Shown: positions 1,369-18,776, numbered from the stretch's first letter. The stretch is 23,612 nt of DNA from a virus (IMGVR_UViG_2728369591_000007), one strand, 5' to 3'. The notes: a model not told the origin generated them from the sequence alone. Numbers and translations are program-made.

Positions 1369-1444
1369 GCCGATATAGCTCAGTTGGTAGAGCAGCGCAT
1401 TCGTAATGCGAAGGTCGTAGGTTCGACTCCTATTATCGGCACCA
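1369..1444 (+). tRNA. thrW: tRNA-Thr, anticodon CGT, CCA encoded
   Basis: 76 nt GCCGATATAGCTCAGTTGGTAGAGCAGCGCATTCGTAATGCGAAGGTCGTAGGTTCGACTCCTATTATCGGCACCA; perfect 7-bp acceptor stem GCCGATA/TATCGGC; anticodon loop cattCGTaatg; T-arm GGTTCGACTCC; an integrase gene follows directly. Confidence 0.93.
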
Positions 1445-1609: not shown

Positions 1610-2824
1610 GTGAAACTCAATGCCCGTCAAATAGACACAGCCAAGCCAAAAGAGAAGGCTTACAAGCTGGCCGATGGTGGCGGTTTGTATCTCTTGGTAA
1701 AACCTAATGGAGGTAAATACTGGCGACTTAAATATCGTGTAGCTGGTAAAGAGAAGCTATTGGCACTAGGTGTGTATCCTGAGGTTACTTTAGCCGATGC
1801 TCGGGCAAAACGTGAAGATGCGAAAAGAGGTATCGCTGGTGGTATCGATCCGATGGAAGCGAAACGAGAGGAAAAGATTGCCCGGGAAACGCAGTTAAAC
1901 AACACCTTCAAAGATATTGCCCTTGAGTGGCACAGCAGCAAATTAAAAAAATGGTCTGCTGGTTATGCTTCAGACATCCTCGAAGCCTTCAACAAAGATG
2001 TGTTCCCTTACATTGGCAAAAAACCAATCGCCGAAATCAAACCACTTGAACTTCTGAATGTGCTGCGGCGCATCGAGGGGCGCGGTGCGACAGAAAAAGC
2101 CAAAAAAGTGAGGCAGCGGTGCGGGGAAGTTTTCCGCTATGCAATAGTCACTGGTCGCGCAGAGTATAACCCTGCACCAGACCTTACTAGCGCGATGCAA
2201 GGCCATGAATCTAATCATTACCCTTTCCTTACGACCAAAGAATTACCTGATTTTTTCAAGGCATTGTCCAGTTACTCAGGAAGCGCATTGGTTGTTATGG
2301 CGGCTCGTCTACTGATTATCACCGGCTTGCGAACTGGCGAACTACGTGGCGCATTATGGGATGAAATTGATTTCAACAAGGCTATATGGGAGATACCCGC
2401 TTCACGTATGAAAATGCGGCGGCCTCATATTGTGCCATTGTCTGAGCAGGCTCTTTCGCTTATTGGGAAGATTAGAGAAATAACAGGCAATTACCCTCTT
2501 ATGTTTCCCGGGCGCAATGATCCAAGGAAAACAATGAGTGAGGCCAGCATAAACCAAGTGTTTAAGCGCATTGGCTACGCTGGACGTGTAACTGGTCATG
2601 GGTTCCGACACACTATGAGCACGATTTTGCATGAGCAGGGCTATAACACCGCGTGGATAGAAACGCAGCTCGCTCACGTTGATAAGAACTCAATTCGTGG
2701 CACATACAACCATGCGCAATATCTGGATGGACGGCGGGAGATGCTTCAATGGTATGCCGACTATATGGATTCTCTCGAGCATGGCGGAAATGTGGTGCAT
2801 ATGGTGTTTGAAAAACACGCATGA
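1610..2824 (+). CDS. P4-type tyrosine integrase (site-specific recombinase), 404 aa, GTG start
   Basis: Adjacent to tRNA; N-terminal arm-binding-like region (LYLLVKPNGGKYWRLKYR...); C-terminal catalytic motifs HGFRHT and LAHVDKNSIRGTYNH with the tyrosine; RBS GGAGG 9 nt upstream of GTG. Confidence 0.9.
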   Translation: MKLNARQIDTAKPKEKAYKLADGGGLYLLVKPNGGKYWRLKYRVAGKEKLLALGVYPEVTLADARAKREDAKRGIAGGIDPMEAKREEKIARETQLNNTFKDIALEWHSSKLKKWSAGYASDILEAFNKDVFPYIGKKPIAEIKPLELLNVLRRIEGRGATEKAKKVRQRCGEVFRYAIVTGRAEYNPAPDLTSAMQGHESNHYPFLTTKELPDFFKALSSYSGSALVVMAARLLIITGLRTGELRGALWDEIDFNKAIWEIPASRMKMRRPHIVPLSEQALSLIGKIREITGNYPLMFPGRNDPRKTMSEASINQVFKRIGYAGRVTGHGFRHTMSTILHEQGYNTAWIETQLAHVDKNSIRGTYNHAQYLDGRREMLQWYADYMDSLEHGGNVVHMVFEKHA

Positions 2825-3133
2825 AACAACTGGACAAGTATACAGAGGTTTACTAAAGTATAGGGGAGTAGATTGATAAAAACTCACAGAGGATTGCTAT
2901 TTAACAGTTAGCCCTGGAGAAGGGCAATCGCTCTTTTATAAACGAAGGTGTATTGAGCCTTCTACGCTGCTGAAAAGCGGAATGTTCTTTAACAGGCTTT
3001 GGCGCTGACAAAGCGCAATTGTTCTTTAAAACTACTGGATGTCACGCCTAATAGCGTGATCCTGCCGAAATGCAGGGTAGCTCTACCCTTGTGGAGCAAA
3101 CAAACCAAAACAATCTGACTATCTTTTATAAAA

Positions 3134-3162
3134 GACCGCAATATGTTTTTCATATTGTGGTC
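3134..3162 (+). promoter_or_regulatory. 12-bp inverted repeat with 5-nt T loop upstream of alpA (operator or weak terminator)
   Basis: GACCGCAATATG-TTTTT-CATATTGTGGTC, one G/A mismatch between arms; located about 90 bp upstream of the alpA start. Confidence 0.35.
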
Positions 3163-3251
3163 TTTGGCGTATTCGACATTTGACGCAAATAAAACTCTCG
3201 CCATTCGTTGCAGGAGGGGGTTATTGCGTCATTAGTACAGGATATTAATAA

Positions 3252-3455
3252 ATGGCTAATTACAATTCATTAATTCGTCTCTCTGAAGTTCAAAGGCGAA
3301 CTGGTTATAGCAAAGCATGGATTTATCGTCTTATTAGTCAGGGGAGGTTCCCTAAACAGGTAAAAATTGGAAGTCGGGCAATTGCTTTTGTTGAGTCTGA
3401 AATAGATGAATGGATTGAGAAGTGTATATTAGAATCTAGAGACGAGGTGGCCTGA
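3252..3455 (+). CDS. alpA: AlpA-family DNA-binding transcriptional regulator (prophage excisionase-like), 67 aa
   Basis: Translation MANYNSLIRLSEVQRRTGYSKAWIYRLISQGRFPKQVKIGSRAIAFVESEIDEWIEK is a typical AlpA-like HTH; positioned right after the integrase. Confidence 0.8.
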   Translation: MANYNSLIRLSEVQRRTGYSKAWIYRLISQGRFPKQVKIGSRAIAFVESEIDEWIEKCILESRDEVA

Positions 3456-3886
3456 TGGAAAAGAAAAACCGCCCATTACAGGCGGCTAATTCAGATATTC
3501 GCGTATCTGATATTACGCCCCTTACAAAATCCCTTCAAGCACCAAAGCGCACACCGAAAAAGCATCGTGCCCGAGTCTATATGCTGCGTACTGGTATAGA
3601 GGGATGGACAGAAAATGACATTCTTCGCTACTGCCGTCTGTCTTCTGGTCGTAACTATGCAACAGAGTTAGAACGCCAGCTTGGAATCACTCTGGAGCGT
3701 ATCGACGAAAAGAATCCTGATGGTATCGGAACACACCTTCGCTACCGTTTCTCCTGCCGTGGTGATGTTCTGAAAGTGATCACTCATGTTAACCATCTTG
3801 CGAACATAAATGATCACAACGGACTTTCTCAGCAGGAAATTGCCGACATTCTGAAACTCTACCCGAACGCGTTTAACGCCGCCTAA
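3455..3886 (+). CDS. hypothetical protein, 143 aa
   Basis: ORF start overlaps the alpA stop (TGATG); good RBS GAGGTGG; protein-like composition; no family recognised. Confidence 0.6.
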   Translation: MEKKNRPLQAANSDIRVSDITPLTKSLQAPKRTPKKHRARVYMLRTGIEGWTENDILRYCRLSSGRNYATELERQLGITLERIDEKNPDGIGTHLRYRFSCRGDVLKVITHVNHLANINDHNGLSQQEIADILKLYPNAFNAA

Positions 3887-3898
3887 CGGAGACTGAAA

Positions 3899-4732
3899 AT
3901 GAACATCGAAAAAAGCAGATTAATTTCTGAGGCCGCCCCTCATCTGAACGCCTCTCTGGGCACAATTAACGGTAATGAATTTGCCGCAATTGTCCCGGTT
4001 ATTCCTGGTCATATCGGTGGGCGTGAAACCAATATTGTTAGCGCAAAAGCGTTACACAAAGCGTTGGGCGTGGGAAAAGACTTCTCTACATGGATCACTG
4101 ATCGCATCTCTGAATATGACTTCACCATTGGGCACGATTACTCAGTCCATAAAACAATTTCCCCAAATTTGGGGAAAAGCCCGAATGGCGCGGCTTACAG
4201 CAAGATAAAGCACTCTGGCAGACCCGGCAAAGACTATCTGTTAAGTGTCGGAATGGCGAAAGAACTGGCAATGATCGAACGCAATGATCAGGGTCGCGCT
4301 ATCCGCCGTTATTTCATCCAGTGCGAGGAAGAATTACAGCGTAGCGTTCCTGAAATCGCCGCCCGCTATCGTCGCCAGCTAAAAGCCCGTCTCAGTGCCG
4401 CAAACAACTTTAAGCCAATGTGCGATGCGCTGAATATGGCCCGTGCCGAGATTGGTAAAACGACGCAGCAACACCACTACACAAACGAGAGCAATATGAT
4501 TTCTCGTATCGTTCTTGGTGGGCTAACTGCTAAGCAGTGGGCGCGGATAAATGGCTATTCTGGCGAACCTCGCGACCATATGAACGCAGAACAGCTTGAG
4601 CACCTCTCATATCTCGAAAGCACCAATATCACGTTAATTGATATGGGCATGGAATATGAGCAGCGCAAAGGAGAACTCACCCGCCTGTCGCAACGCTGGC
4701 TCGCCAAGCGTCTGGAGGCGCTCAATGTCTAA
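3899..4732 (+). CDS. phage antirepressor-like protein (AntA/AntB-type N-terminal domain), 277 aa
   Basis: Motifs SAKALHKALGVGKDFSTWITDRISEYDF and DYLLSVGMAKELAMIERNDQGRAIRRYFIQCEEEL resemble the antirepressor family as I remember it; RBS GGAG 7 nt upstream. Confidence 0.6.
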   Translation: MNIEKSRLISEAAPHLNASLGTINGNEFAAIVPVIPGHIGGRETNIVSAKALHKALGVGKDFSTWITDRISEYDFTIGHDYSVHKTISPNLGKSPNGAAYSKIKHSGRPGKDYLLSVGMAKELAMIERNDQGRAIRRYFIQCEEELQRSVPEIAARYRRQLKARLSAANNFKPMCDALNMARAEIGKTTQQHHYTNESNMISRIVLGGLTAKQWARINGYSGEPRDHMNAEQLEHLSYLESTNITLIDMGMEYEQRKGELTRLSQRWLAKRLEALNV

Positions 4733-4904
4733 GCCAACAGGAACACCACAACCACAAAAACGCTACAAAGATGCCCACGGAGCACTCGTTACTGTCGAAA
4801 GCGTGTCTCACAACCGAGTGACGTTTTATCGCGACGGGTATCAATCGCCATGCGTACAACCGCTGGCGCGTTTCATGAAGGAGTTCGCGGAGGTTAACCA
4901 ATGA
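4725..4904 (+). CDS. hypothetical small protein, 59 aa
   Basis: ATG at 4725 preceded by GGAGG; overlaps the stop of the upstream gene by 8 bp; sequence MSKPTGTPQPQKRYKDAHGALVTVESVSHNRVTFYRDGYQSPCVQPLARFMKEFAEVNQ. Confidence 0.55.
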   Translation: MSKPTGTPQPQKRYKDAHGALVTVESVSHNRVTFYRDGYQSPCVQPLARFMKEFAEVNQ

Positions 4905-5338
4905 TACCCGTCCAGAAGAAGACATTTTCACTGGCTGGCATGTCGCCAAAATCCAGAAATATGACGGCAAAGTCAGGCATTAATACAGCAGATACAAGCA
5001 AAGTTTATCATTTGCTGGTGGTCGGAACGGATGCCTTAACCATACCAGAAATCTCGGGCGATGATATTAGCATTGAGAAGGTCAGCGGCTGCGCCAGAAA
5101 ATTTCTGGTCGTAGATGATGTCTTCCGCTCGTGTAGTGACTCCACAAAAACATTCGTCCACGCGCGTGACGTTAACGAAATGAGCGCGATGTACTGTGCT
5201 TCTGGTTCTTCCAATAGTGAGTTTTCGGAGTCCATAAAAAAGAGCTTGCCGTTATGCGGCAACACGGTTTATGGTTATAAGGCACCTCATAAAACGGGTG
5301 CCGGGTTTCGCAGCCCGGAAATGTACGAGGCGACACAT

Positions 5339-5360
5339 GACGCGCCGAGCGTCTTTTTTT
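5339..5360 (+). terminator. Candidate intrinsic terminator (short GC hairpin plus T7 run)
   Basis: GACGC-GCCGA-GCGTC followed by TTTTTTT. Confidence 0.5.
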
Positions 5361-5377
5361 GTGCCGTTAGCCAGACT

Positions 5378-5406
5378 CACACTTTTTTCAGTGATGTGGT
5401 TATAAT
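5378..5406 (+). promoter_or_regulatory. Candidate sigma70 promoter (perfect -10 TATAAT at 5401-5406, weak -35)
   Basis: TATAAT directly downstream of the terminator and upstream of a structured leader and the RBS-led ORF at 5563; the -35 match is poor, so the call is tentative. Confidence 0.3.
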
Positions 5407-5562
5407 CCGCGTCGCTTGCAAAATTATGGTGGGCTGGACAGGGCAGCCGAAAGGCTGGCCGGTTTCCTTGTACGCCGGTACTGCGAACTCTGTTCAGTCC
5501 ACCACCAGCGAGTTTCGCAGCTCCGGTGGTGGGAAGAATTCCCAGTACAAGGAGGCTGCCAC

Positions 5563-5757
5563 ATGCTGGCTACTACCCCTACCCAAAAACCGCAATTTAT
5601 CTGGATTATCGCCGCAGTTCGCCGCGATTGCCCGACAATTACCGCCAAAATTCATCATATTGCTGCCGAGTCTGAACGCGATGCTCGCCGTTCTCTGGTG
5701 CGCGATCACGTCTGCTTTTTTGCTGGTCGTATCCGCATGGAGGTGGCACATGATTAA
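5563..5757 (+). CDS. hypothetical small protein, 64 aa (first gene of the early operon)
   Basis: Strong RBS AGGAGG 7 nt upstream of ATG; translation MLATTPTQKPQFIWIIAAVRRDCPTITAKIHHIAAESERDARRSLVRDHVCFFAGRIRMEVAHD; stop overlaps the next start. Confidence 0.6.
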   Translation: MLATTPTQKPQFIWIIAAVRRDCPTITAKIHHIAAESERDARRSLVRDHVCFFAGRIRMEVAHD

Positions 5758-5968
5758 AACCTACGATGTGCATATGGATCCCCTCGAACGCACAAGCCAG
5801 ATCATCACACTGACAGAAGTGATTAACGACATTCTGGTGAGCAACTCTCCCTCACGAGACGAAAGACTGAAGGCGTTACTCGCGATATTGGATCTCGCCG
5901 TTCGTGACGTTCATTTCCTGCTGGAAGGTGGCGAAATGCCAGGAAAAACGGGGGCAACCAATGAATAA
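5750..5968 (+). CDS. hypothetical small protein, 72 aa
   Basis: ATG at 5750 preceded by GGAGG at spacing 7; translation MIKTYDVHMDPLERTSQIITLTEVINDILVSNSPSRDERLKALLAILDLAVRDVHFLLEGGEMPGKTGATNE; 8-bp overlap with both the previous and the next gene. Confidence 0.6.
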   Translation: MIKTYDVHMDPLERTSQIITLTEVINDILVSNSPSRDERLKALLAILDLAVRDVHFLLEGGEMPGKTGATNE

Positions 5969-6155
5969 CTCAATTAATGCCCCTCGACTTACGTCCGCAC
6001 TTCAATTAATCGAGCAAGCAGCGGCTGTCCTGGTTGCTGTCAGTCTTTCGGCTGAAGAAATGGACGCTGCTGATGTCGTGGATGCGATTAAAGCGTGCTC
6101 ATCTTTGGTTAACGATGCTCGTGCAGAGCTGGTAATTCTTGGTGGTGAAAAATGA
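5961..6155 (+). CDS. hypothetical small protein, 64 aa
   Basis: Internal ATG of the 5904 ORF chosen because of the ATGAATAA overlap with the upstream stop; translation MNNSINAPRLTSALQLIEQAAAVLVAVSLSAEEMDAADVVDAIKACSSLVNDARAELVILGGEK. Confidence 0.55.
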   Translation: MNNSINAPRLTSALQLIEQAAAVLVAVSLSAEEMDAADVVDAIKACSSLVNDARAELVILGGEK

Positions 6156-6415
6156 ATATCAACTTAATTTATCGTCATCCGTGTGAGCTGGAAATTGAAT
6201 CATTGCTGAGCCGTGAAGAGCCATATCCAGACACATTCACTCTTGCAGATCGCACGACTGAACGGCTTACCAGAGCGCGCACAGGTCTGGTTCATGTGAT
6301 GAATGAGATTCTTCCATCGGTGGGAGGGGAACAGGCGACAGTAATCACTAGCTGGCTACAAAAAGTTACCTCTCTGATAGATATCAGTTTAATCGATGCG
6401 GAGAGTGCGAAATGA
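6152..6415 (+). CDS. hypothetical protein, 87 aa
   Basis: ATGA start/stop overlap with the upstream gene (translational coupling); protein-like sequence. Confidence 0.6.
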   Translation: MNINLIYRHPCELEIESLLSREEPYPDTFTLADRTTERLTRARTGLVHVMNEILPSVGGEQATVITSWLQKVTSLIDISLIDAESAK

Positions 6416-6633
6416 CCAACATCCAGCTCATTGAAGCACAATGTCGCATCGAACAGGTTCAGACTGTTTTAGGGTTCTGGCTTGAAGGGGCCAGCCCCAG
6501 CAACAGAGACAAGTTAATGATTGGCGCGGTTATGTCACTGCTCAATGGCGTACCAGAAGCTATTCAGGAAGCAGACGAATTGTTGGGCAAATATGAGTTA
6601 CAGAATCATTCAGGCGAGGCGAAACATGAATAA
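6412..6633 (+). CDS. hypothetical protein, 73 aa
   Basis: ATGA overlap with the upstream gene; protein-like sequence. Confidence 0.6.
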   Translation: MTNIQLIEAQCRIEQVQTVLGFWLEGASPSNRDKLMIGAVMSLLNGVPEAIQEADELLGKYELQNHSGEAKHE

Positions 6634-7228
6634 TTTCTTAACTTTCCATGCAGAAGCAACGCCTGACGGCGTAAACATCATGTACCGCAGCAACGATGGC
6701 ATGACAGAACGCGTTGAGGCCGTCTCATATATTGATGCCGTAAATCGTCTGGATGCCGGGGATTATGACGATAAACCAGATGAAGGTATGTCAATACATC
6801 TCGCTATAGCCGATGGCGGCAACCAGGGATATTTCGATTACACATCACAGCATAACGTCATTATGTGGAGATGGCTGATCGCAACAGTATTCATGCTGGA
6901 AATGAGAGAGGAAAACGGCACTGTCAGCATCATTGATGATACTGGCAATCCTTCCGAAGTGGCTGTTTATTCCAACGGCATCGTCGCCATGCCGCTGTAT
7001 CCAGTAGCAGAGCGCCTCGCTATGGCAAACAACATTGAGGGCGCGATGATAGAACGTTTTGGCATCGAGTCTGGCACAGAACGCGCCATCATTTTCTACA
7101 GAGCCATGATGGATGTGGAACAAGGAGCACTGACTCCATTTGGTCGTGAAACGCTTGCTGAACTTCACAACAGCTTTATAGCTGAACTGAATGAAAACGG
7201 CATGCCAGCGGAACCAGTGACGCACTGA
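6626..7228 (+). CDS. hypothetical protein, 200 aa
   Basis: Start ATG at 6626 (MNNFLTFHAEATPDG...) preceded by GAGG; 8-bp overlap with the upstream stop. The longer track ORF from 6521 was trimmed to this start. Confidence 0.6.
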   Translation: MNNFLTFHAEATPDGVNIMYRSNDGMTERVEAVSYIDAVNRLDAGDYDDKPDEGMSIHLAIADGGNQGYFDYTSQHNVIMWRWLIATVFMLEMREENGTVSIIDDTGNPSEVAVYSNGIVAMPLYPVAERLAMANNIEGAMIERFGIESGTERAIIFYRAMMDVEQGALTPFGRETLAELHNSFIAELNENGMPAEPVTH

Positions 7229-7238
7229 GGATGGAACC

Positions 7239-7580
7239 ATGATTACTAAAAATTTCCGACTGAATGCGCTGGCAAATAAGTATGCGTCGGCACTGTATAA
7301 CCACATTACCTCCACCAGCGGCGGGGACTATTTCATGGTTGATGCGGACGGCGAGGCCGTCCGTGTGGAAATCGTCAATGGAGTAAAAGGCGTTCGCAGC
7401 CTGATCGATAGCTACACACTGGCAGCCATGAAAGTGTTCTACCCGCAGTGGGAAACCGTGGGGATCGAGCTTCTTGATCGTTGCGTCACTAAGGACGGAT
7501 TGACTGACGTCGGGCGTGAGATATGGCAAAGCATGGTTAATGACATGGGCGCAACTGTAGCGGGAGGTTCTCATGCGTGA
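7239..7580 (+). CDS. hypothetical protein, 113 aa
   Basis: RBS GAGG upstream; same operon and orientation as its neighbours. Confidence 0.6.
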   Translation: MITKNFRLNALANKYASALYNHITSTSGGDYFMVDADGEAVRVEIVNGVKGVRSLIDSYTLAAMKVFYPQWETVGIELLDRCVTKDGLTDVGREIWQSMVNDMGATVAGGSHA

Positions 7581-7944
7581 AAATGCAGAAATGGCGCTTA
7601 GCTCCGCAATCGGAGAGCAGGTGGCAAAGATTGCTGGTGCTGTGTGGATTCATAACCTTCATTCTACTGGTGAAGAGAAAATGGCAATTCAGACGCCAGA
7701 GGGACGCACCATTACTACATCTCTGAAGCCGTCAGATGTTTGTGATCTGATTTGCGCATTCATGTACCCAGCAATGAGGACTGCCCACGGCGATAAGTGG
7801 AAACTTGCGACAACCGCTGAATTTGATATGTGGCTAAACAATGATGGCATGCTGACTGATTACGGAATAACCAAGTGGCAGATGCTGGTTAGCCATATCG
7901 CAAACGCTATAGACCACGTGGGGTACGGTGATGCGAAACATTGA
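7573..7944 (+). CDS. hypothetical protein, 123 aa
   Basis: 8-bp overlap with the upstream gene; its own stop overlaps the primase start. Confidence 0.6.
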   Translation: MRENAEMALSSAIGEQVAKIAGAVWIHNLHSTGEEKMAIQTPEGRTITTSLKPSDVCDLICAFMYPAMRTAHGDKWKLATTAEFDMWLNNDGMLTDYGITKWQMLVSHIANAIDHVGYGDAKH

Positions 7945-10687
7945 TCTTATCCGTCAGGTTATCAGTGCGTCTGAAAACAACTGGCCTCATGTGCTGGGCT
8001 GCCTGAACATAAATGTCCCTGACTCTCCGCGCCGTCATGCTCCCTGCCCTGCATGTGGGGGCAAAGATCGATTCCGGTTCGATGACAACGGGCGCGGTAG
8101 CTTCATCTGTAATCAGTGCGGCGCTGGTGATGGGCTGGATTTAATTAAACGCGTAAATAACTGCGACACAACAGAGGCGGCGCTTCTTGCCGCTGATGTT
8201 CTGGGTATTGATTACCGGACAACGGAAACACCAGAAGCCACCAGCCAGAAACGGGAACAACTGGAAACCGAGCGCCAGCGACGCGAACAGGAGCGCCTGA
8301 AAAGGGCAGAGAAGGACGAACAACAAAGACGGGATACGTTTTCCCGTCAGTTTGATGACATGCGCAGAAAGGCTGTAAACGGCAAATCTGATTATTTGGT
8401 TGCGAAAGGGGTAGGTGATTTTACATTCCCCGTGTTGCCCGATGGATCTCTGTTGCTGGCGCTGGTGGATAAATCCGGCGCAGTAACAGCAGCACAGACT
8501 ATTACCTCACATGGTGAAAAAAGACTCCTGACAGGTTCAGCAAAGCGGGGGGCATATCACGCCATAAACGCACCAGAAACAACACAGAGCATCTTAATCG
8601 CAGAAGGGCTGGCAACGGCATTATCTGCCCATTTAATTCGTCCAGAGGCGCTGACAGTGGCGGCGATTGATGCCGGGAACCTGTTATATGTCGCCCAGGT
8701 ACTGCGGGATAAATTTCCTTCAGCACAAATCATCATTGCTGCGGATAACGACCACAGCGAAGGAAGACAAAACACGGGGAGAATAGCAGCAGAAAAAGCA
8801 GCTTTATCTGTTTCTGGATGGGTGGCATTACCCCCGACAGATCACAAAGCAGACTGGAATGATTACCACCAAAAACACGGCATTAAATGCGCCACAGAAG
8901 CGTTCAATAAGTCAATGTACCAACCACAGGGTAATGGCGTGAAACAGGAGCCACAGACCATTGAGGGAAGCGATTTTAAGGTTATGGATACCGACCCACT
9001 GAAACCAAGAATAGAAAGCCGCGAGGATGGTATTTATTGGGTATCTCCGAGAGCTGACAGCCAGAGTGGAGAAATCATCAATAACGAAAGCTGGTTATGT
9101 TCTCCGTTAAGCGTTATCGGTACTGGCAGAGACGATAAAGACCAGTATCTCATTCTTCGCTGGCTGTCGTTTGGTTCTGAAACGCCGACAACCGCTGCCA
9201 TTCCACTGGCTGATATTGGTGAACGTGAAGGATGGCGCACACTTAAAGCTGGTGGGGTAAATGTCACGACCAAAAGCAGCCTCAGAGCAATGCTGGCAGA
9301 CTGGCTACAACGCAGTGGCTCTCGTGAATTGTGGCGTGTTGCTCATGCCACTGGCTGGCAATGCGGAGCGTACATCATGCCTGATGGGGAAATCATCGGA
9401 ACACCTGAAAATCCTGTGCTGTTCAGCGGGAGAAGCTCAGCCGCAGCCGGATATACCGTCTCAGGGAGCGCGCAAAGCTGGCGTGATAACGTGGCGCGTC
9501 TGGCCTTTGGTAACTATTCAATGATGACCGGGATCGGCGCAGCACTGGCAGCACCATTGATTGGGCTGGTGGGCGCTGACGGGTTCGGCATTCATTTCTA
9601 TGAGCAGTCGAGCGCAGGTAAGACCACCACGGCAAACGTGGCGAGCAGCTTATACGGCAACCCTGATTTACTGCGGCTGACGTGGTACGGAACCGCGCTG
9701 GGGCTGGCAAATGAGGCCGCCGCCCACAATGACGGACTAATGCCGCTTGATGAAGTTGGTCAGGGCGCTGATCCTGTCAGCGTTTCACAGTCTGCCTATG
9801 CGTTATTTAACGGTGTAGGGAAACTGCAAGGCGCTAAAGATGGTGGAAACCGGGATCTAAAACGTTGGCGTACAGTGGCAATCAGCACCGGAGAAATGGA
9901 TTTAGAAACATTTATCGCTACTTCCGGGCGAAAAACCAAAGCCGGGCAACTGGTGCGACTGCTGAATATTCCGTTGACTAAAGCAGTACGCTTTCACGAT
10001 TACCAGAACGGAAAACAGCACGCAGACGCACTGAAAGACGCTTACCAGCATCACCACGGCGCGTCCGGGCGTGAGTGGATTAAATGGCTGGCAGACCACC
10101 AGCAACAGGCTATTAAAACCGTTCGTGATTGCGAAAGCAGATGGAGAAGCCTGATCCCATCCGATTATGGTGAGCAGGTTCACCGTGTAGCCGCGCGATT
10201 TGCCATTCTGGAGGCCGCATTGTTGTTAGGCGAGGTTGTAACAGGCTGGGATGCTCAGACATGCCGTGATGCGATACAGCACAGCTATAACGCATGGTTG
10301 CGCGAGTTCGGCACAGGTAACAAAGAGCATCAGCAGATTATTGAACAAACGGAGGCATTTCTTAATGCCTATGGGCTTAGCCGTTTTGCACCATTTCCAT
10401 ACAGCCCGGCAGATTTGCCCATCAAAGATTTAGCCGGATACCGTCAGCGTGGAGAACATGACGAAAGCCCAATGATTTTCTACACATTCCCGGCCACATT
10501 TGAAAAGGAGATCGCATGTGGTTTCAACGCAAAACAGTTTGCTGAAGTGTTGAAAAAAGCCGGGATGCTAACCCCACCAAACAGCGGTCGTGGATACCAA
10601 AGAAAATCACCACGTATTCAGGGACGACAAATAAACGTTTATGTACTCAATTACCAGCCAGGAGATTATAACTCATCTGAAGAATGA
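7928..10687 (+). CDS. replicative primase-helicase, P4 alpha-like (zinc ribbon + TOPRIM + P-loop NTPase), 919 aa
   Basis: Zinc ribbon CPACGG-x17-CNQCG; TOPRIM-like IIAEGLATALSAH and IIIAADNDHSEG; Walker A-like SSAGKTT and Walker B-like LMPLDEVG; iteron cluster immediately downstream. Confidence 0.85.
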   Translation: MMRNIDLIRQVISASENNWPHVLGCLNINVPDSPRRHAPCPACGGKDRFRFDDNGRGSFICNQCGAGDGLDLIKRVNNCDTTEAALLAADVLGIDYRTTETPEATSQKREQLETERQRREQERLKRAEKDEQQRRDTFSRQFDDMRRKAVNGKSDYLVAKGVGDFTFPVLPDGSLLLALVDKSGAVTAAQTITSHGEKRLLTGSAKRGAYHAINAPETTQSILIAEGLATALSAHLIRPEALTVAAIDAGNLLYVAQVLRDKFPSAQIIIAADNDHSEGRQNTGRIAAEKAALSVSGWVALPPTDHKADWNDYHQKHGIKCATEAFNKSMYQPQGNGVKQEPQTIEGSDFKVMDTDPLKPRIESREDGIYWVSPRADSQSGEIINNESWLCSPLSVIGTGRDDKDQYLILRWLSFGSETPTTAAIPLADIGEREGWRTLKAGGVNVTTKSSLRAMLADWLQRSGSRELWRVAHATGWQCGAYIMPDGEIIGTPENPVLFSGRSSAAAGYTVSGSAQSWRDNVARLAFGNYSMMTGIGAALAAPLIGLVGADGFGIHFYEQSSAGKTTTANVASSLYGNPDLLRLTWYGTALGLANEAAAHNDGLMPLDEVGQGADPVSVSQSAYALFNGVGKLQGAKDGGNRDLKRWRTVAISTGEMDLETFIATSGRKTKAGQLVRLLNIPLTKAVRFHDYQNGKQHADALKDAYQHHHGASGREWIKWLADHQQQAIKTVRDCESRWRSLIPSDYGEQVHRVAARFAILEAALLLGEVVTGWDAQTCRDAIQHSYNAWLREFGTGNKEHQQIIEQTEAFLNAYGLSRFAPFPYSPADLPIKDLAGYRQRGEHDESPMIFYTFPATFEKEIACGFNAKQFAEVLKKAGMLTPPNSGRGYQRKSPRIQGRQINVYVLNYQPGDYNSSEE

Positions 10688-10712
10688 GATTCTTCATGTG
10701 CGTAGAAAAGGT

Positions 10713-10823
10713 GTTGGTTCAGTTGGTTCAGTTGGTTCAATTTGTAAAGAGTATTGTTTTATAAGGATTTTATTCTTTTTATTGAACCAACACTGAACCA
10801 ACAACACGGTATTTTGAACCAAC
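10713..10823. repeat. Iteron cluster 1 (candidate ori): 3 tandem GTTGGTTCA, AT-rich spacer, 3 inverted TGAACCAAC
   Basis: GTTGGTTCA at 10713-10721, 10722-10730, 10731-10739; TGAACCAAC at 10783-10791, 10794-10802, 10815-10823; begins 26 bp after the primase stop. Confidence 0.7.
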
Positions 10824-11143
10824 ACAATGTGACTGAATTGATGCGCACAACACCTGGCTGGCATCAGAGAGTGTTTTACGAGACTTTCGTAAAATCCTGT
10901 GTACAAGGGCGTGACGTTTTTGAAAGTGAGCACTACGAAATTTTCGTAGTTCAAAAAACAGCCTCTGAGAAGTTGTTATGCCTGTTCAGCAAACCATCCG
11001 CATAGCTGATCGCGAATCAAATTACCAATGGAGCCAGAAGCAAGGGCAGAACTGAAAAGCGCCTGCCGTGAAGAGTAATGCGACACCATAAATATAGTTT
11101 TTAGAGTCCATAAAAAACCTGTCAAAACCTGACACACAGAACG

Positions 11144-11449: not shown

Positions 11450-11911
11450 ATGGAACTAAAATTTATTGATAACCCTGTGCGATTACAGGCCTTTCTTAAC
11501 GAGCCAGGCAATACCGAAAATATTGTTGAGCCGGGGCACACGTACTACATCAAGCCTGATGCGGTATATCTCGGCATCTACGAAGGATTAGTGCTGGCTG
11601 GCGTTCATGAAGTGCGTAACTTCTGGCATAGCGTTGTTGAATGCCATGCGGTGTACGACCCCGGATTCCGTGGTGAATATGCACTGCAAGGGCATCGATT
11701 ATTCTGCAAATGGCTTCTCGAAAACTCACCATTCCTTAACAGCATTACCATGGTTCCTGACACCACCAAATACGGACGGGCAATTATCCGTTTGCTTGGC
11801 GCTACCCGTGTTGGTCACCTTGATGATGCTTATATCAGATGTGGTAAACCCGTCGGCGTAACGCTTTATCAGTTAACTCGGCAACAATATAAGGAATTCA
11901 GCGAATGTTAA
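11450..11911 (+). CDS. hypothetical protein, 153 aa (first gene of cargo cassette)
   Basis: Co-directional with, and overlapping, the next gene; protein-like sequence; no family recognised. Confidence 0.6.
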   Translation: MELKFIDNPVRLQAFLNEPGNTENIVEPGHTYYIKPDAVYLGIYEGLVLAGVHEVRNFWHSVVECHAVYDPGFRGEYALQGHRLFCKWLLENSPFLNSITMVPDTTKYGRAIIRLLGATRVGHLDDAYIRCGKPVGVTLYQLTRQQYKEFSEC

Positions 11912-12582
11912 TTACCCACATAGCTCATAAACATCTCAATCGTGCCGTATACGAAAAAGGCGGTGATGGTGGTGCCTCTAAAGCTCAGGCGAAGGCCCAG
12001 CAGCAGGCAATTGATTTGCAGCGCGAGCAGTGGAATACGGTGATGAATAATCTCAAGCCGTATGCAGAAGTCGGATTGCCTGCTTTACAACAACTACAAG
12101 GACTGATGACTCTGGAAGGGCAGAATAAAGCCGCGAATGATTTCTTTGGTTCTGGTTTATATAAAACACAGGCAGATCAGGCCCGTTATCAGAACCTTGT
12201 CTCAGCAGAAGCTACCGGGGGGCTTGGCTCAACAGCTACCAGTAACCAGTTATCTTCCATTGCGCCCATGCTTTATAACAATTGGCTTAGTGGGCAAATG
12301 CAAAATTATGGAAACCTGCTAAATGTCGGGATGAATGCGGCATCAGGGCAGGCAACAGCAGGGCAAAACTACGCCAATAATACCGGACAACTCTTGCAGG
12401 GGCTTGGCGCTATTCGTGCAGGTCAGGCGCAGCAGCCATCCAGTCTTGCGCGTGGTATTGGTGGGGCAGCATCAGGCGCTTTAGCGGGTGCGCAACTTGG
12501 TTCCGTTGTTCCTGGAATAGGTACTGCGGCAGGCGCTATTGGTGGTGGGCTTATTGGTCTTGTTGGGGGGCTTGGATTCTAA
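11905..12582 (+). CDS. Gln/Gly-rich protein with C-terminal glycine-zipper hydrophobic segment, 225 aa (ejection/pilot-protein-like)
   Basis: C-terminus GIGGAASGALAGAQLGSVVPGIGTAAGAIGGGLIGLVGGLGF; stop overlaps the next start (TAATG). Confidence 0.6.
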   Translation: MLITHIAHKHLNRAVYEKGGDGGASKAQAKAQQQAIDLQREQWNTVMNNLKPYAEVGLPALQQLQGLMTLEGQNKAANDFFGSGLYKTQADQARYQNLVSAEATGGLGSTATSNQLSSIAPMLYNNWLSGQMQNYGNLLNVGMNAASGQATAGQNYANNTGQLLQGLGAIRAGQAQQPSSLARGIGGAASGALAGAQLGSVVPGIGTAAGAIGGGLIGLVGGLGF

Positions 12583-13901
12583 TGGCGACATGGCAACTTG
12601 GCGGGCTGCCTAGCATGGCACCGCAAAATGATAATGCTCCTCGTTCTTCCGTTCCTCAGCCTGTGCAGTATCAGCAGCAGCCAAACGTAGGTTTAATGGC
12701 GCTACAGGGGCTAAGAGGCGTTGCTGAGATTAATCAGCAGGCGCAAATTTCCCAGCAGCTAAAAGAATATCAGGCACAGTTGGGTAGTGCGGTAGCTAAT
12801 AATGATCGTGTTGGCGTGCAGAAGTTAATGGCCCAGTATCCCCAGTTTATGGCTGATTCTCAAAAACAGATGGGATTCATTGATGCTGAGCAAAATCGGC
12901 AGACCGCTGACGCTGCCATGAATCTGCGTCTTGCGTCACAAACTGGAGATCCACTGACCATGCAGAAGGCCATTCAGCAGGCAAATCCAGTATTACAGCG
13001 ATTTGGTCTTCCTGCTGAAGAGGTTTATCAGTCTTGGCAGAATGACCCACAGGAATTCAACAGAATCACTGACCTCATCCACCTCCATGCTGATCCAAAT
13101 AGTTACTTTAGTGTTCAAGAGAAGCAGCAAGGGCAGAGTATTGCACAGCAGAACGCAGATACATCTGCATATAATGCTCAGGTTAATGCGGAACAGGGTA
13201 ATCGGCGTCTCGATATGGAGCAGTTCAAAGTCCTATCCGATAACCAGCTACGCACGAGAGAAATGGTTCTGAAAGCACGACTTGGACGTGCTCAAAATGA
13301 CATCGAGAGAGACAAGCTCAATGCTGAACTGAGCAAGGTACAGCAGGCGAAAGTGGAGAAGATGAACGATAAAATTAATACTGTTGCAGGTAACATCGAC
13401 TCCTTGAACTCTGCGCTTGAAGTGGGTCATGAACTGGCGGGAATTGTAGGGAAACATCCTTCGGCCGTTACCCGTTCGCAGAACTATAACCCCCTGACGC
13501 TGGGGTTTGGATTCCTTCCTGATGTAGCAGAAGACACACGAAGCCTACGCGCCAAAGCTGATGAATACAACCTAAAGGTTATTCTGCCTAGCCTCAAAGG
13601 GACTTTTGGCTCTAACCCAACCGAAGGGGAAAGGGCTGCCCTTATGCAATCTCAAAATGGCATTAAGTCAGCAACCAGCAATGAGGCATTTTTGCGAGAG
13701 TTGAATAAAGCGCAGGACGTAATTATTCGAATGCAGAAACGACAGATTGCCGGGCTCGGTATTCCTGTAACCAAATCTAAGGACGAAGAAACTGATACTA
13801 AAATGCTGTTGCAGGATCCTTCTCTGGTTAAGGATTATGTGACCGCACATGGCTATCTGCCGGAAAGTTACTATCAGGCAAAACTTAAGGGATGGCAATG
13901 A
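12582..13901 (+). CDS. Gln-rich predicted coiled-coil protein, 439 aa (internal-virion/ejection-protein-like)
   Basis: Long Q/A/N-rich helical-looking sequence; translationally coupled to both flanking genes. Confidence 0.6.
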   Translation: MATWQLGGLPSMAPQNDNAPRSSVPQPVQYQQQPNVGLMALQGLRGVAEINQQAQISQQLKEYQAQLGSAVANNDRVGVQKLMAQYPQFMADSQKQMGFIDAEQNRQTADAAMNLRLASQTGDPLTMQKAIQQANPVLQRFGLPAEEVYQSWQNDPQEFNRITDLIHLHADPNSYFSVQEKQQGQSIAQQNADTSAYNAQVNAEQGNRRLDMEQFKVLSDNQLRTREMVLKARLGRAQNDIERDKLNAELSKVQQAKVEKMNDKINTVAGNIDSLNSALEVGHELAGIVGKHPSAVTRSQNYNPLTLGFGFLPDVAEDTRSLRAKADEYNLKVILPSLKGTFGSNPTEGERAALMQSQNGIKSATSNEAFLRELNKAQDVIIRMQKRQIAGLGIPVTKSKDEETDTKMLLQDPSLVKDYVTAHGYLPESYYQAKLKGWQ

Positions 13902-17467: not shown

Positions 17468-17473
17468 CTAATA

Positions 17474-17495
17474 AGCCCGGTACGCCGGGCATTTT
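17474..17495 (+). terminator. Intrinsic terminator after the lipoprotein gene
   Basis: GCCCGG-TACG-CCGGGC hairpin followed by ATTTTG. Confidence 0.6.
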
Positions 17496-17680
17496 GCCCC
17501 CTATTATTCATGAATCGCTTTTTCTAGAAGGTATGCGACAAACGTTAAGTGACATTGCCTACACATTCGGGGCGGGATTTCAAATCCGCTCCCAGTTGAT
17601 GGGGCCGTTACAGTACGCGCATATCCGCTTTATGTGAAACAGGAAGATTTTTCTGATATCACTGCCACAGCAAAACACCA

Positions 17681-17703
17681 ATTTCGAGACAAGTACGCGC
17701 GCG
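17681..17703. repeat. CG-alternating 23-bp repeat, copy A
   Basis: ATTTCGAGACAAGTACGCGCGCG; followed by the 20-bp palindrome GTTGCAAAAAATTTTGCAAC at 17714-17733. Confidence 0.6.
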
Positions 17704-17966
17704 AGGGGTATCAGTTGCAAAAAATTTTGCAACTACGTCCGACCAATACACACACGATGGCGGGGGATACCATAAAACTGTTCTCTACATGAGACAGAGT
17801 GGTGGTGATGTGTTGATTATCGGCCTATATGCGCACAGGACGCGCTATGACAATGTTTTATGCGGGTACACCAATCACATGTATCTGGTGTGATAAATCG
17901 CGTTACATGACCTCTCATGTTGTGCTGGTGGTTATCACGACGTTCTGAATCTGGCTTTTGTCTGAT

Positions 17967-18764: not shown

Positions 18765-18776
18765 AATGTATTCCTG

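What the first reader, a model, noticed from the sequence alone, without database searches (positions are those of the whole stretch)
5563..7944. Eight tightly overlapping small genes preceding the primase
Genes of 59 to 200 aa are chained by 4- or 8-bp start/stop overlaps (ATGA, ATGAATAA types), implying strict translational coupling and co-regulation. None matches a family I recognise. In satellites, this position typically holds helper-derepression and helper-interference factors, so these are candidates for new anti-helper or anti-defence functions.
Basis: partly seen in the sequence, partly recalled or inferred. Interest (0 to 1): 0.45.

Follow-up and report, generated by a model that had tools for sequence, protein, structure and literature searches.

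The report
RNA-gated small-gene operon before satellite primase
The eight small overlapping genes are real, but they are the body of a P4-satellite-type replication operon switched off by a small antisense RNA that covers the ribosome-binding site of the first gene, so this is a new member of a known kind, and seven of the gene products still have no known function.

Summary
Observation confirmed. Eight co-oriented ORFs of 64-200 aa (5563-7944) are joined by 8, 8, 4, 4 and 8 nt overlaps, a 10-nt spacer, then 8 and 14 nt overlaps into a 918-aa primase. Each scores best in its own frame. All with diverged orthologous DNA show dN/dS below 0.5.

An isrK/seqA-like RNA (5282-5359) and a C4/CI-type antisense RNA (5422-5509) lie just upstream. 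The C4 loop is complementary to 9 nt overlapping the Shine-Dalgarno of gene 1. This pairing covaries in 31 distinct leaders from Enterobacterales, P4 included (97.6% paired; 13 of 16 pairs with double changes).

Gene 1 is an Icd/Kil-like protein, 43% identical to the matching part of the P4 cI ORF. So the region corresponds to the P4 immunity plus left (replication) operon. It sits in a thrW-integrated island with Gram-negative PICI layout: int, AlpA, AntA, primase, captured P22-like ejection genes.

Genes 2-8 have no known family. They form a mosaic array (g6 in 16 of 17 related arrays, g8 in 3). None resembles P4 epsilon. g6 has a weak, unproven Cnr-like signal. g7 and g8 are remote paralogues; g8 is a three-helix bundle with no fold match.

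The anti-helper or anti-defence reading is neither supported nor excluded.

The parts
1369..1441 (+). tRNA-Thr (thrW), integration site and left end of the island
   Evidence: Rfam tRNA 71.8 bits. PGAP annotates tRNA-Thr next to proA in strain 83972. No second copy of its 3' end was found in the window or in 35 kb of L001.
1610..2824 (+). P4-type tyrosine integrase
   Evidence: Pfam Arm-DNA-bind_3, Phage_int_M and Phage_integrase.
3252..4904 (+). Upstream operon of four chained genes: AlpA (3252-3455), a 143-aa ORF (3455-3886), AntA-family antirepressor (3899-4732), DUF4222 (4725-4904)
   Evidence: Pfam Phage_AlpA 7e-20, AntA 2.7e-21, DUF4222 5.5e-25. Junctions read from the sequence.
4901..5968 (+). 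Eta-like long ORF (355 codons). It starts with an ATGA overlap on the DUF4222 stop, runs through both RNA genes and across g1 out of frame, and ends at the g2 stop. PGAP calls it 'ash family protein'.
   Evidence: Pfam PF10554 matches aa 124-232, which is nt 5270-5596. The same profile matches the translated seqA-CI-seqC region of P4 and not epsilon. The ORF is open in all five aligned E. coli variants, and an ORF of 118-355 aa spans C4 in 57 of 57 loci. P4 eta precedent as summarised in PMC10111431.
5247..5275 (+). Putative promoter for the leader: TTGCCG, 17 nt, TATGGT, with +1 near 5282 (analogue of P4 PLE)
   Evidence: Read from the sequence. Invariant in the five-sequence alignment. Not found by the consensus scan, so this is an inference.
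5282..5359 (+). isrK/seqA-like leader RNA with intrinsic terminator (stem 5339-5353 plus T-run). It carries target copies a1 (5307-5313, TTCGCAG) and b1 (5323-5330, GTACGAGG).
   Evidence: Rfam RF01394 69 bits. Terminator. Complementarity to C4. The same family hits the P4 seqA region.
5401..5406 (+). TATAAT hexamer upstream of C4, a possible second promoter
   Evidence: Invariant across three immunity types while its flanks vary. Inference only.
5422..5509 (+). C4/CI-type antisense (immunity) RNA; b' loop 5465-5473 (UCCUUGUAC), a' segment 5481-5487 (CUGCGAA)
   Evidence: Rfam RF01695 81.1 bits, E 9e-15, full length. The same family hits the P4 CI RNA.
5514..5562 (+). seqC-like target region: a2 5514-5520 (UUCGCAG), b2 5545-5553 (GUACAAGGA), overlapping the SD AAGGAGG at 5549-5555 of g1
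   Evidence: Exact complementarity. Covariation: 97.6% of cells paired against 66% in shuffles and at most 45% in slid controls; 13 of 16 pairs have changes on both sides; 0 of 500 shuffles reach the score. In 59 of 59 loci a' pairs with a1 and a2 over 7 of 7 nt; b2 ends 1-3 nt into the SD in 52 of 53.
5563..5757 (+). g1: Icd/Kil-like protein (64 aa), the first translated gene and the gated entry point of the operon
   Evidence: NCBIfam NF033153 3.7e-20. 43% identical to aa 73-130 of the P4 'cI ORF'. dN/dS 0.14-0.26.
5750..5968 (+). g2 (72 aa), no family; also the in-frame C-terminal part of the eta-like ORF
   Evidence: A 44% identical orthologue exists in a Symbiopectobacterium MAG, dN/dS 0.24.
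5961..6155 (+). g3 (64 aa), no family
   Evidence: Only 15 representatives with E<=1e-3 among 1.84 billion. The large repeat-protein hits look like composition artefacts. dN/dS 0.08-0.22.
6152..6415 (+). g4 (87 aa), no family; in 12 of 17 related arrays
   Evidence: 56-59% identical orthologues of the same length. 31 clusters in the 5.8-billion-protein set, none with a meaningful name. Alternative family F6 at the same position is a remote homologue (hhalign 1.6e-6).
6412..6633 (+). g5 (73 aa), phrog_20558 (unknown function)
   Evidence: dN/dS 0.23-0.44. In 10 of 17 arrays.
6626..7228 (+). g6 (200 aa), phrog_1515 (unknown function); the most conserved member of the array; weak Cnr-like signal in aa 130-185
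   Evidence: PHROG 5.7e-47. 550 homologues. In 16 of 17 arrays, often directly before the primase. hhalign against the Cnr family gives P 6e-4 to 7.5e-4, probability 25-28%. AF2 model unusable, pLDDT 42.6.
7239..7580 (+). g7 (113 aa), phrog_37628 (unknown function), remote paralogue of g8
   Evidence: dN/dS 0.17-0.30.
7573..7944 (+). g8 (123 aa), no family; three-helix bundle with a beta hairpin; its conserved C-terminus GYGDAKH overlaps the primase start
7931..10687 (+). Primase-helicase (Zn ribbon, TOPRIM, DUF927), last gene of the chain
   Evidence: Pfam. The N-terminal 361 aa are 33% identical to the primase domain of P4 alpha.
10711..10825 (.). Candidate replication origin: six copies of GTTGGTTCA (three direct, three inverted) in AT-rich DNA just after the primase stop
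   Evidence: GC 0.405. Assignment as an origin is inference by analogy with P4 crr.
11450..16618 (+). Late zone: divergent P22-type genes (DUF2824, gp7, gp20, gp16-like with SLT domain)
   Evidence: Pfam. Only 25-28% identical to gp20 of known P22-like phages. Ejection-protein genes are also annotated after the primase in related E. coli islands.

Best explanation
The eight genes plus the primase form one operon: the immunity-controlled replication ('left') operon of a thrW-integrated satellite-type island related to P4 and to Gram-negative PICIs.

Proposed mechanism:
1. A leader is transcribed from just upstream of 5282. It contains an isrK/seqA-like RNA with a terminator and a C4/CI-type RNA.
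2. By analogy with P1 and P4, the roughly 88-nt C4-like RNA is processed out of the leader. Its a' and b' segments pair with a2 and b2 on the same or new transcripts.
3. b2 overlaps the Shine-Dalgarno of g1, so g1 (an Icd/Kil-like protein) is not translated.
4. Every later gene starts inside or within 10 nt of the end of the previous one. Ribosomes therefore reach g2-g8 and the primase mainly by termination-reinitiation.
5. Without g1 translation the RNA stays ribosome-free and, as in P1 and P4, is expected to be terminated by Rho. The island stays silent.
6. The block may be overcome in two ways. C4 may be titrated, for example by the isrK/seqA RNA, which carries decoy sites a1 and b1. Or transcription from the upstream AlpA-AntA-DUF4222 operon may be translated straight through the leader as the 355-codon eta-like ORF, which ends at the g2 stop on top of the g3 start. 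Either way the whole chain would be made at once.

Proposed products:
- Icd/Kil-like g1 arrests the cell.
- The primase replicates the island from the iterons downstream.
- g6, g7 and g8 are the primase-proximal, most conserved members and most likely assist or regulate replication.
- g2-g5 are small, exchangeable accessory proteins whose targets are unknown.

Shown here: the genes, the overlaps, the RNAs, their complementarity and covariation, and homology of g1, the RNAs and the primase domain to P4. Inferred: RNA processing, translational repression, Rho polarity, eta-type read-through, and every protein function other than family membership.
For: - Rfam: C4 81 bits and isrK 69 bits, directly upstream and co-oriented. 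The same two families hit the P4 CI and seqA regions.
- The C4 loop is exactly complementary to 9 nt overlapping the g1 SD, and a' is complementary to sites on both sides of C4.
- Three immunity types among near-identical E. coli islands show compensatory changes while the coding genes barely change. Six elements including P4 show five a-specificities and five b-specificities.
- Of 61 loci, 59 have the hairpin, with 21 distinct b loops. Cognate complementarity averages 8.7 nt against 4.4 nt for non-cognate pairs.
- Formal covariation test: 97.6% paired, 13 of 16 pairs with double changes, 0 of 500 shuffles reach the score, slid controls at most 45%.
- g1 is Icd-like and 43% identical to the corresponding part of the P4 ORF.
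- The P4 left operon has the same order (RNA, kil-like gene, small genes, alpha) and the same 8-nt overlaps.
- Every Icd-like gene in about 55 Enterobacterales loci is followed by an overlapping chain ending in a primase.
- There is no + strand terminator inside the array.
- The primase domain is 33% identical to P4 alpha, and iterons lie after the primase.
- An eta-like ORF is open in 57 of 57 loci. Literature for P4 eta/kil/CI and for C4/isrK hits in GN-PICIs: PMC10111431. IsrK-seqA-CI relation and coupling through a small ORF: PMC4825925.
Against: - No expression data were examined. Processing of the RNA, repression of g1 and Rho polarity all rest on P1 and P4 precedent.
- The g6-g7 junction is a 10-nt spacer with its own SD, and every gene has an SD-like motif, so some independent initiation is possible.
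- Internal promoters cannot be excluded by a consensus scan.
- The eta-like ORF shows little protein-level constraint (9 synonymous against 22 non-synonymous codon changes in 4901-5281). In P4 a second frame is also open across the RNA, so part of the openness may come from composition.
- Replication roles for g6-g8 rest on position and one weak profile match. g6 and g7 homologues also occur in temperate phages far from any primase.
Confidence: 0.75

Rival explanations
1. One reading: some or all of g2-g8 are helper-manipulation or anti-defence factors, functional analogues of P4 epsilon (helper derepression) or interference proteins. They would be made when the island is induced, and would act on the helper phage or on host immunity rather than on island replication.
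For: - They occupy the position of epsilon and orf151 in P4.
- The array is mosaic between conserved anchors: about 12 small families swap in and out across 17 related arrays. This pattern is typical of accessory regions.
- g6 and g7 homologues lie in early-left operons of temperate phages, among other small unknown genes.
- The island carries P22-type late genes, which suggests a phage helper.
Against: - No similarity to epsilon (PF25738) or orf151, to any PADLOC model, or to any solved structure searched (g6 and g7 sequences; g8 model).
- No anti-defence library was available.
- An AntA-family antirepressor upstream is a more conventional derepression candidate.
- The most conserved members (g4-g6) co-occur with very different primases, which fits a housekeeping role for the island.
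Confidence: 0.25
2. The operon works in the resident island mainly as an abortive-infection (programmed cell death) module. An incoming phage protein would upset the RNA immunity or the primase complex. The Icd/Kil-like protein and its neighbours would then be expressed and stop the cell, excluding the phage.
For: Silas et al. (bioRxiv 10.1101/2023.04.06.535777):
- Suppressor insertions fell in the Icd-like gene and the two small overlapping ORFs next to it.
- In an ECOR15 P4 prophage, suppressors hit alpA, the Icd-like gene, a small ORF next to the primase gene, and the primase itself.
That is the architecture found here.
Against: - The ECOR61 locus could not be retrieved, so I do not know whether its small genes are homologues of g2 and g3; their sizes (about 61 and 63 aa) differ.
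- The reconstituted effect was described as muted.
- This role does not exclude the replication-operon explanation; it would be a consequence of it.
Confidence: 0.3
3. g6, and perhaps g7 and g8, are replication accessory proteins in the strict sense. They would be counterparts of P4 Cnr that bind the primase-helicase and set copy number or origin binding.
For: - g6 is in 16 of 17 arrays and lies directly before the primase with a 9-12-nt spacer when g7 and g8 are absent, as cnr does before alpha (8-14 nt).
- hhalign of g6 aa 130-185 against Cnr 41-100 gives P 6e-4 to 7.5e-4. It ranks fourth of 231 family pairs.
- Three g6 homologues carry a faint precomputed DUF5375 hit.
- The g8 C-terminus is invariant where it overlaps the primase start.
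Against: - hmmscan does not reproduce the DUF5375 hit.
- hhalign probability is only 25-28%, and the P value does not survive correction for 231 comparisons.
- g6 and g7 homologues in phages are not next to primases.
- The conserved g8 C-terminus may reflect only dual coding with the primase start.
Confidence: 0.3
4. The small ORFs are not genes: chance open frames in a long untranslated leader of the primase.
For: PGAP skips g1 and/or g2 in several genomes.
Against: Best frame in 8 of 8. dN/dS well below 1 across genera. Protein-level homologues at 35-65% identity with conserved length. PHROG and NCBIfam matches.
Confidence: 0.02

Closest known systems
Satellite phage P4: immunity region and left operon (PLE, seqA, CI RNA, seqC, kil nested in eta, epsilon, orf151, cnr, alpha)
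   Same: - Same order and orientation.
- The same two Rfam families hit both.
- Same three-way complementarity, with the downstream target abutting the invariant SD GGAGGCTGCC.
- First gene homologous (43% identity).
- Same 4- or 8-nt overlaps.
- Primase domain homologous (33% identity).
- A long ORF runs through the RNA genes.
- P4-type integrase and AlpA.
   Different: - Seven genes instead of three between the kil-like gene and the primase, none detectably homologous to epsilon or orf151, and at best doubtfully to cnr.
- The helicase part of the primase is DUF927, not the alpha C-terminal type.
- The eta-like ORF is in frame with g2, not with the kil-like gene.
- No sid, delta or psu in the ORFs scanned.
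- The late genes are of P22 type.
Phage P1/P7 immI operon (c4 antisense RNA, icd, ant1/2)
   Same: The C4 family RNA has a'/b' loops and a1b1/a2b2 targets, with b2 at the ribosome-binding site of icd. An Icd-like first gene must be translated for the downstream genes to be expressed. Sequence swaps in the loops create different immunity specificities. The P1 mechanism itself is cited from established literature (Citron and Schuster 1990; Biere et al. 1992; Riedel et al. 1993), from my own knowledge.
   Different: Here the downstream cargo is seven small genes and a primase rather than an antirepressor. The antirepressor-family gene (AntA) lies upstream of the RNA.
Gram-negative PICIs, four-zone organisation (Mageeney et al. 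2023, PMC10111431; Fillol-Salom et al. 2018)
   Same: - Integration zone: int and AlpA.
- Bro zone: AntA, Phage_ASH and the immunity RNAs (C4/isrK hits are reported for several GN-PICIs).
- Replication zone: primase, including DUF927 types.
- Late zone: captured helper late genes.
   Different: The small-gene array between the immunity RNAs and the primase is not discussed in the passages of that paper I searched. P22-type ejection genes in a late zone were not mentioned there either. attR and mobility are unverified here.
Salmonella Gifsy-1 isrK-orf45-anrP locus (Hershko-Shalev et al. 2016, PMC4825925)
   Same: An isrK RNA with a terminator, a processed downstream RNA (STnc1160) regarded as the CI counterpart, and a small ORF whose translation is RNA-controlled and is coupled by an AUGA overlap to the next gene.
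   Different: There the cargo is an antirepressor-like protein that switches on an antiterminator. No primase operon is present.

Membership tests
C4/CI antisense-RNA immunity cassette (P1 c4 with a1b1/a2b2; P4 CI with seqA/seqC) | RNA matching the C4 covariance model above the curated threshold | tested here: met
   RF01695 81.1 bits against a gathering score of 45, full length, 5422-5509.
C4/CI antisense-RNA immunity cassette (P1 c4 with a1b1/a2b2; P4 CI with seqA/seqC) | Upstream seqA/isrK-type element carrying a first copy of the target sites, with a terminator | tested here: met
   RF01394 69 bits, 5282-5359. Terminator. a1 is exact; b1 matches 7 of 8 nt.
C4/CI antisense-RNA immunity cassette (P1 c4 with a1b1/a2b2; P4 CI with seqA/seqC) | Single-stranded segments of the RNA complementary to a downstream site that covers the ribosome-binding site of the first gene, maintained by covariation | tested here: met
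   9-nt exact match overlapping the SD. Covariation statistics on 31 distinct leaders and a 59-locus survey.
C4/CI antisense-RNA immunity cassette (P1 c4 with a1b1/a2b2; P4 CI with seqA/seqC) | Processing of the RNA from the leader (RNase P, PNPase) and Rho-dependent termination when the first gene is not translated | not testable with these tools
   Needs RNA mapping and genetics.
Icd/Kil family (NCBIfam NF033153) | Profile match above the curated cut-off | tested here: met
   g1: 71.7 bits against a cut-off of 25. 43% identical to the P4 counterpart.
Icd/Kil family (NCBIfam NF033153) | Inhibits cell division or kills when expressed | not testable with these tools
   Experimental.
P4-like satellite (seven components: int, psu, delta, sid, alpA, epsilon, alpha; PMC8628076) | Integrase and AlpA | tested here: met
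P4-like satellite (seven components: int, psu, delta, sid, alpha, alpA, epsilon; PMC8628076) | Capsid-hijack and late-control genes psu, sid and delta | tested here: not met
   No Psu or delta/Ogr Pfam hit in any of the larger ORFs scanned across the window. Sid has no Pfam model, and ORFs below about 60 aa were not scanned.
P4-like satellite (seven components: int, psu, delta, sid, alpA, epsilon, alpha; PMC8628076) | Epsilon (helper derepression protein) | tested here: not met
   PF25738 hits P4 epsilon but none of g1-g8. The profile used as the epsilon marker in PMC8628076 (PF10554) does hit the window, but on the translated RNA region.
P4-like satellite (seven components: int, psu, delta, sid, alpA, epsilon, alpha; PMC8628076) | Alpha-type primase-helicase | tested here: inconclusive
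   The N-terminal primase domain is 33% identical to alpha, but the C-terminal part is DUF927, and no D5-type helicase family appeared among the Pfam hits.
Gram-negative PICI (four zones; PMC10111431) | Ordered zones: int+AlpA, then Bro-network genes with immunity RNAs, then primase, then late genes | tested here: met
   definitions.
Gram-negative PICI (four zones; PMC10111431) | Discrete element bounded by att repeats; helper-induced excision, replication and packaging | tested here: inconclusive
   attL at thrW, but no attR copy of the tRNA 3' end within the window or L001. Mobility is not testable here.
P4 Cnr (DUF5375, PF17345), considered for g6 | Profile match | tested here: inconclusive
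   hmmscan finds no hit even at E<=10. hhalign family against family gives P 6e-4 to 7.5e-4, probability 25-28%. Three homologues carry faint precomputed hits.

The most novel reading that the evidence does not exclude
The island would represent an undescribed branch of P4-immunity-type satellites that exploit P22-like podoviruses and carry their own, highly diverged ejection proteins. The exchangeable small-gene array between the kil-like gene and the primase would be its toolbox of epsilon-like helper-manipulating or immunity-triggering proteins. In that reading the eta-like ORF, re-framed onto g2, lets induced transcripts bypass both the RNA immunity and synthesis of the toxic Icd-like protein.
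Probability: 0.15. Interest if true: 0.65.

Novelty: new member of a known kind. Interest (0 to 1): 0.38.

Why it matters
The value is mostly in interpretation.

- About 250 complete E. coli genomes, including the ABU 83972 lineage, carry this exact array, annotated as 'hypothetical protein' rows plus an 'ash family protein'.
- Read as an RNA-gated P4-type operon, it gains a single testable control point: the C4 loop against the g1 SD.
- The many loop/target specificities (21 b loops in 59 loci) imply a heteroimmunity system among co-resident satellites.
- Seven small proteins would be made only when the island is awake. These are the ones to test for replication control, helper manipulation, or the phage-triggered growth arrest reported for a similar locus.
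- The work also flags an annotation problem. Pfam PF10554 ('Ash') and the PGAP name derived from it sit on the translated seqA-CI RNA region. That profile has been used as the marker for epsilon in satellite surveys.

Tried and rejected
- Homology of g2-g8 to P4 epsilon, orf151 and cnr. BLASTP found nothing. hhalign of the g6 or g8 family against single Cnr gave probabilities of 1.7% and 0.2%. Family against family raised g6-Cnr only to 25-28%. I kept this as a lead, not a finding.
- Structure route. The g6 AF2 model was too poor to search (pLDDT 42.6). The g8 model was good but matched only generic helical bundles. The afdb50 library was unavailable.
- Pfam, NCBIfam, PADLOC and PDB sequence searches gave nothing meaningful for g2-g8. 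Weak TY-Chap1, PTPS and CARF hits are far below cut-offs and I disregard them.
- g3 hits to two giant repeat proteins are composition artefacts: these are HYR/RTX and cadherin-like proteins.
- I first took the 355-codon ORF as a spurious translation of RNA genes. I revised this after finding it open in 57 of 57 loci and after recalling the P4 eta precedent. The similarity between family members still resides in the RNA-coding part.
- Search for attR: none found.
- Literature on satellites with P22-type ejection genes: none found.
- Forti et al. 1999 (PMC94026) is not held. Its content is cited through PMC10111431 and from my own memory.

Full report
**1. What is in the sequence**

The window is an E. 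coli chromosomal segment. It runs from proA (1-1254) and tRNA-Thr thrW (1369-1441) into an integrated island. It is 100% identical to several ST73-type and other strains, and differs by about one base from ABU 83972.

On the + strand, 5563-7944 holds eight ORFs: g1 5563-5757 (64 aa), g2 5750-5968 (72), g3 5961-6155 (64), g4 6152-6415 (87), g5 6412-6633 (73), g6 6626-7228 (200), g7 7239-7580 (113) and g8 7573-7944 (123). A 918-aa primase follows at 7931-10687.

The junctions are 8, 8, 4, 4 and 8 nt overlaps, a 10-nt spacer, then 8 nt and 14 nt overlaps.

**2. Are they genes?**

- Each ORF scores best in its own frame out of six under a codon model trained on other genes of the window, and each has an SD-like motif.
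- For g1-g3 and g5-g7, orthologues from other E. coli islands and other genera give dN/dS of 0.06-0.44. For g4 dS was saturated, with dN of about 0.36-0.40.
- g8 has 51-70% identical homologues in Kluyvera, Citrobacter and Serratia.
- g6 has 550 homologues. g5, g6 and g7 fall in PHROG families of unknown function.
- No + strand terminator lies inside the array.

The 'chance ORFs' explanation is rejected.

**3.

Rfam finds two RNAs directly upstream and co-oriented: isrK (5282-5359, 69 bits) and C4 antisense RNA (5422-5509, 81 bits).

The hairpin-2 loop of C4, UCCUUGUAC (5465-5473), is exactly complementary to GUACAAGGA (5545-5553). That site overlaps the SD AAGGAGG of g1, whose ATG is at 5563. 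A second segment, CUGCGAA (5481-5487), is complementary to UUCGCAG both at 5514-5520 and at 5307-5313, inside isrK.

This is the a'/b' with a1b1/a2b2 layout of the P1 immI operon, and the CI with seqA/seqC layout of P4.

**4. Comparative proof of the RNA pairing**

Near-identical E. coli islands fall into three 'immunity types'. The loop and both targets have changed together, while g1-g5 are almost invariant.

Adding two more distant islands and P4 itself gives five a-specificities and five b-specificities, all matched.

A scan of one genome per species with an Icd-like alignment returned 70 loci.
- 59 of 61 analysable loci have the hairpin, with 21 different b loops.
- a' pairs perfectly (7 of 7 nt) with a1 and a2 in 59 of 59.
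- b' pairs over 7-10 nt with a site that ends 1-3 nt into the SD in 52 of 53.
- Non-cognate combinations average 4.4 nt against 8.7 nt for cognate ones.

On an alignment of 31 distinct leaders, 97.6% of cells pair, against 66% in shuffles and at most 45% when the partner is slid. Thirteen of 16 pairs show changes on both sides, and 0 of 500 shuffles reach the covariation score.

**5. Relation to P4**

- The same two Rfam families hit the P4 CI RNA and its seqA region.
- g1 matches NCBIfam 'Icd-like'. It is 43% identical to the C-terminal part of the old P4 'cI ORF', which corresponds to kil.
- P4 then has epsilon, orf151, cnr and alpha, with 8-nt overlaps at the first two junctions.
- The N-terminal 361 aa of the window primase are 33% identical to the primase domain of alpha.
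- Six GTTGGTTCA iterons follow the primase gene, as crr follows alpha.

Hence 5282-10825 corresponds to the immunity region plus left (replication) operon of P4.

The literature states that CI prevents expression of the P4 replication genes by premature termination. It also states that isrK is the structural counterpart of seqA (PMC4825925), and that C4/isrK relatives occur in Gram-negative PICIs (PMC10111431).

**6. The long ORF through the leader**

A 355-codon ORF (4901-5968) starts with an ATGA overlap on the DUF4222 stop. It crosses both RNA genes and g1 (out of frame) and ends at the g2 stop. PGAP calls it 'ash family protein'.

Pfam PF10554 matches only its residues 124-232, which is nt 5270-5596. 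The same profile matches the translated seqA-CI-seqC region of P4 and not epsilon, which is PF25738.

The ORF is open in all variants examined. An ORF of 118-355 aa spans C4 in 57 of 57 loci. In 45 it is in frame with the icd-like gene. In 11 it ends at the stop of the next gene, and this group includes every locus that has g2. One database protein fuses the Ash region to a g3-like C-terminus.

This matches P4 eta. There the ORF is translated only from an upstream late promoter, and its translation prevents immunity-dependent termination (Forti et al. 1999, as summarised in PMC10111431, and from my own memory of the abstract).

Caveats: protein-level constraint is weak, and P4 also has a second open frame across the RNA.

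**7. The array in its relatives**

Every Icd-like gene is followed by an overlapping chain that ends in a primase.

Classical P4-likes have icd, a 75-aa gene, cnr and alpha, or icd, epsilon, orf151, a 100-aa gene, cnr and alpha.

The window belongs to a second group of 17 loci with primases of 780-921 aa and a mosaic array. g6 is in 16, g4 in 12, g5 in 10, g7 in 8, g2 in 7, g3 in 6 and g8 in 3. Other families take their places (E. coli examples).

Among the E. coli genomes, about 250 hold at least 80% of the array. Other islands lack g7 and g8 or carry different promoter-proximal genes.

**8. Function of g2-g8**

- Nothing meaningful in Pfam, NCBIfam, PADLOC or PDB sequences.
- No similarity to epsilon or orf151.
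- g6: a weak profile match of aa 130-185 to Cnr 41-100 (P 6e-4 to 7.5e-4, probability 25-28%). Its position mirrors cnr. But hmmscan is negative, and phage homologues sit in early-left operons away from primases. The AF2 model was unusable.
- g7 and g8 are remote paralogues.
- g8 folds confidently (pLDDT 88.9) as three long helices with a beta hairpin, but has no specific fold match. Its invariant C-terminus overlaps the primase start.
- g3 and g4 are rare families: 15 representatives among 1.84 billion, and 31 clusters.

**9. Other readings**

[quoted passage not shown] Suppressor insertions fell in the Icd-like gene and the next two small overlapping ORFs. In an ECOR15 P4 prophage, suppressors fell in alpA, the Icd-like gene, a small ORF next to the primase gene, and the primase itself.

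So a defence-by-suicide consequence of derepressing such an operon is plausible here, but I could not compare the loci.

It has no direct support, and the AntA-family gene upstream is the more conventional derepression candidate.

**10. The element**

Int, AlpA, a 143-aa ORF, AntA, DUF4222, the eta-like ORF with the RNAs, the array, the primase, the iterons and then P22-type genes (DUF2824, gp7, gp20, gp16-like) fit the four-zone Gram-negative PICI plan.

It is not a P4-like satellite in the seven-component sense: no psu, delta or epsilon was found, and sid could not be tested with Pfam. No attR was found, and the region continues into the vat island.

**11. Verdict**

The system is a new member of a known kind. 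Interest is moderate. It lies in the clear, testable regulatory logic, the heteroimmunity diversity, the re-framed eta-like ORF, and seven uncharacterised proteins that are produced only on induction.

Noticed in passing
window 4901-5968 (Pfam match on 5270-5596): PGAP 'ash family protein' and Pfam PF10554 (Phage_ASH) correspond to the translation of the isrK/seqA-C4/CI RNA region, in this window and in P4 itself. P4 epsilon is a different family (PF25738). PF10554 was used as the epsilon marker in a P4-like satellite survey (PMC8628076), so that marker actually detects the RNA immunity region and eta-like ORF.
   Followed up: yes
window 4901-5968 against 5563-5757: In the window's subfamily the eta-like ORF is shifted by one base between the SD and the ATG (GCCAC-ATG instead of GCCATCATG). 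It therefore reads across the Icd-like gene out of frame and is nested with g2 instead of with the kil-like gene. This holds for all seven g2-bearing loci, including a Symbiopectobacterium MAG.
   Followed up: partly
window 10711-10825: Six copies of the 9-mer GTTGGTTCA lie in AT-rich DNA immediately after the primase stop: three direct at 9-nt spacing and three inverted. This is a candidate iteron origin.
   Followed up: partly
window 11450-16618: A cluster of P22-type genes (DUF2824, gp7, gp20, and a 908-aa gp16-like protein with an SLT domain) follows the primase, without any capsid or tail genes between. gp20 is only 25-28% identical to known P22-like phages. Ejection-protein genes are also annotated after the primase in related E. 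coli islands at other sites. I found no paper describing satellites with their own ejection proteins.
   Followed up: partly
window 5282-5562 compared with L007, L008, L005, L006: The leader is hypervariable while the flanking genes are nearly identical. E. coli islands that differ by less than 5% elsewhere carry different C4 loop and target specificities, which suggests frequent switching of immunity type among co-circulating islands.
   Followed up: yes
window 6152-6415 (g4) and homologues: RefSeq/PGAP names some g4 homologues 'nicotinic acetylcholine receptor subunit beta'. This is an evidently spurious product name that is propagating through E. coli genomes.
   Followed up: no
L002 (OM284015, 'Elizabethkingia phage EKP1'): This phage record carries g6 and g7 homologues (g7 64% aa, about 68% nt identity), DUF4222, PrtN and an enterobacterial-type early-left operon. 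The stated host looks doubtful.
   Followed up: no
window 16769-23612: Beyond the ejection genes lie several ORFs without any family (232 aa on +; 145, 361 and 139 aa on -), a PRiA4_ORF3 protein (21235-21777), and lower GC (about 0.41-0.43). In strain 83972 the region continues to PerC, an integrase fragment and the vat toxin gene. No attR was found, so the right boundary of the island is undefined.
   Followed up: no
window 2989-3204 (- strand): A 71-aa ORF on the opposite strand lies between the integrase and alpA. It has no family hit. It could be a small regulator divergent from the alpA operon.
   Followed up: no
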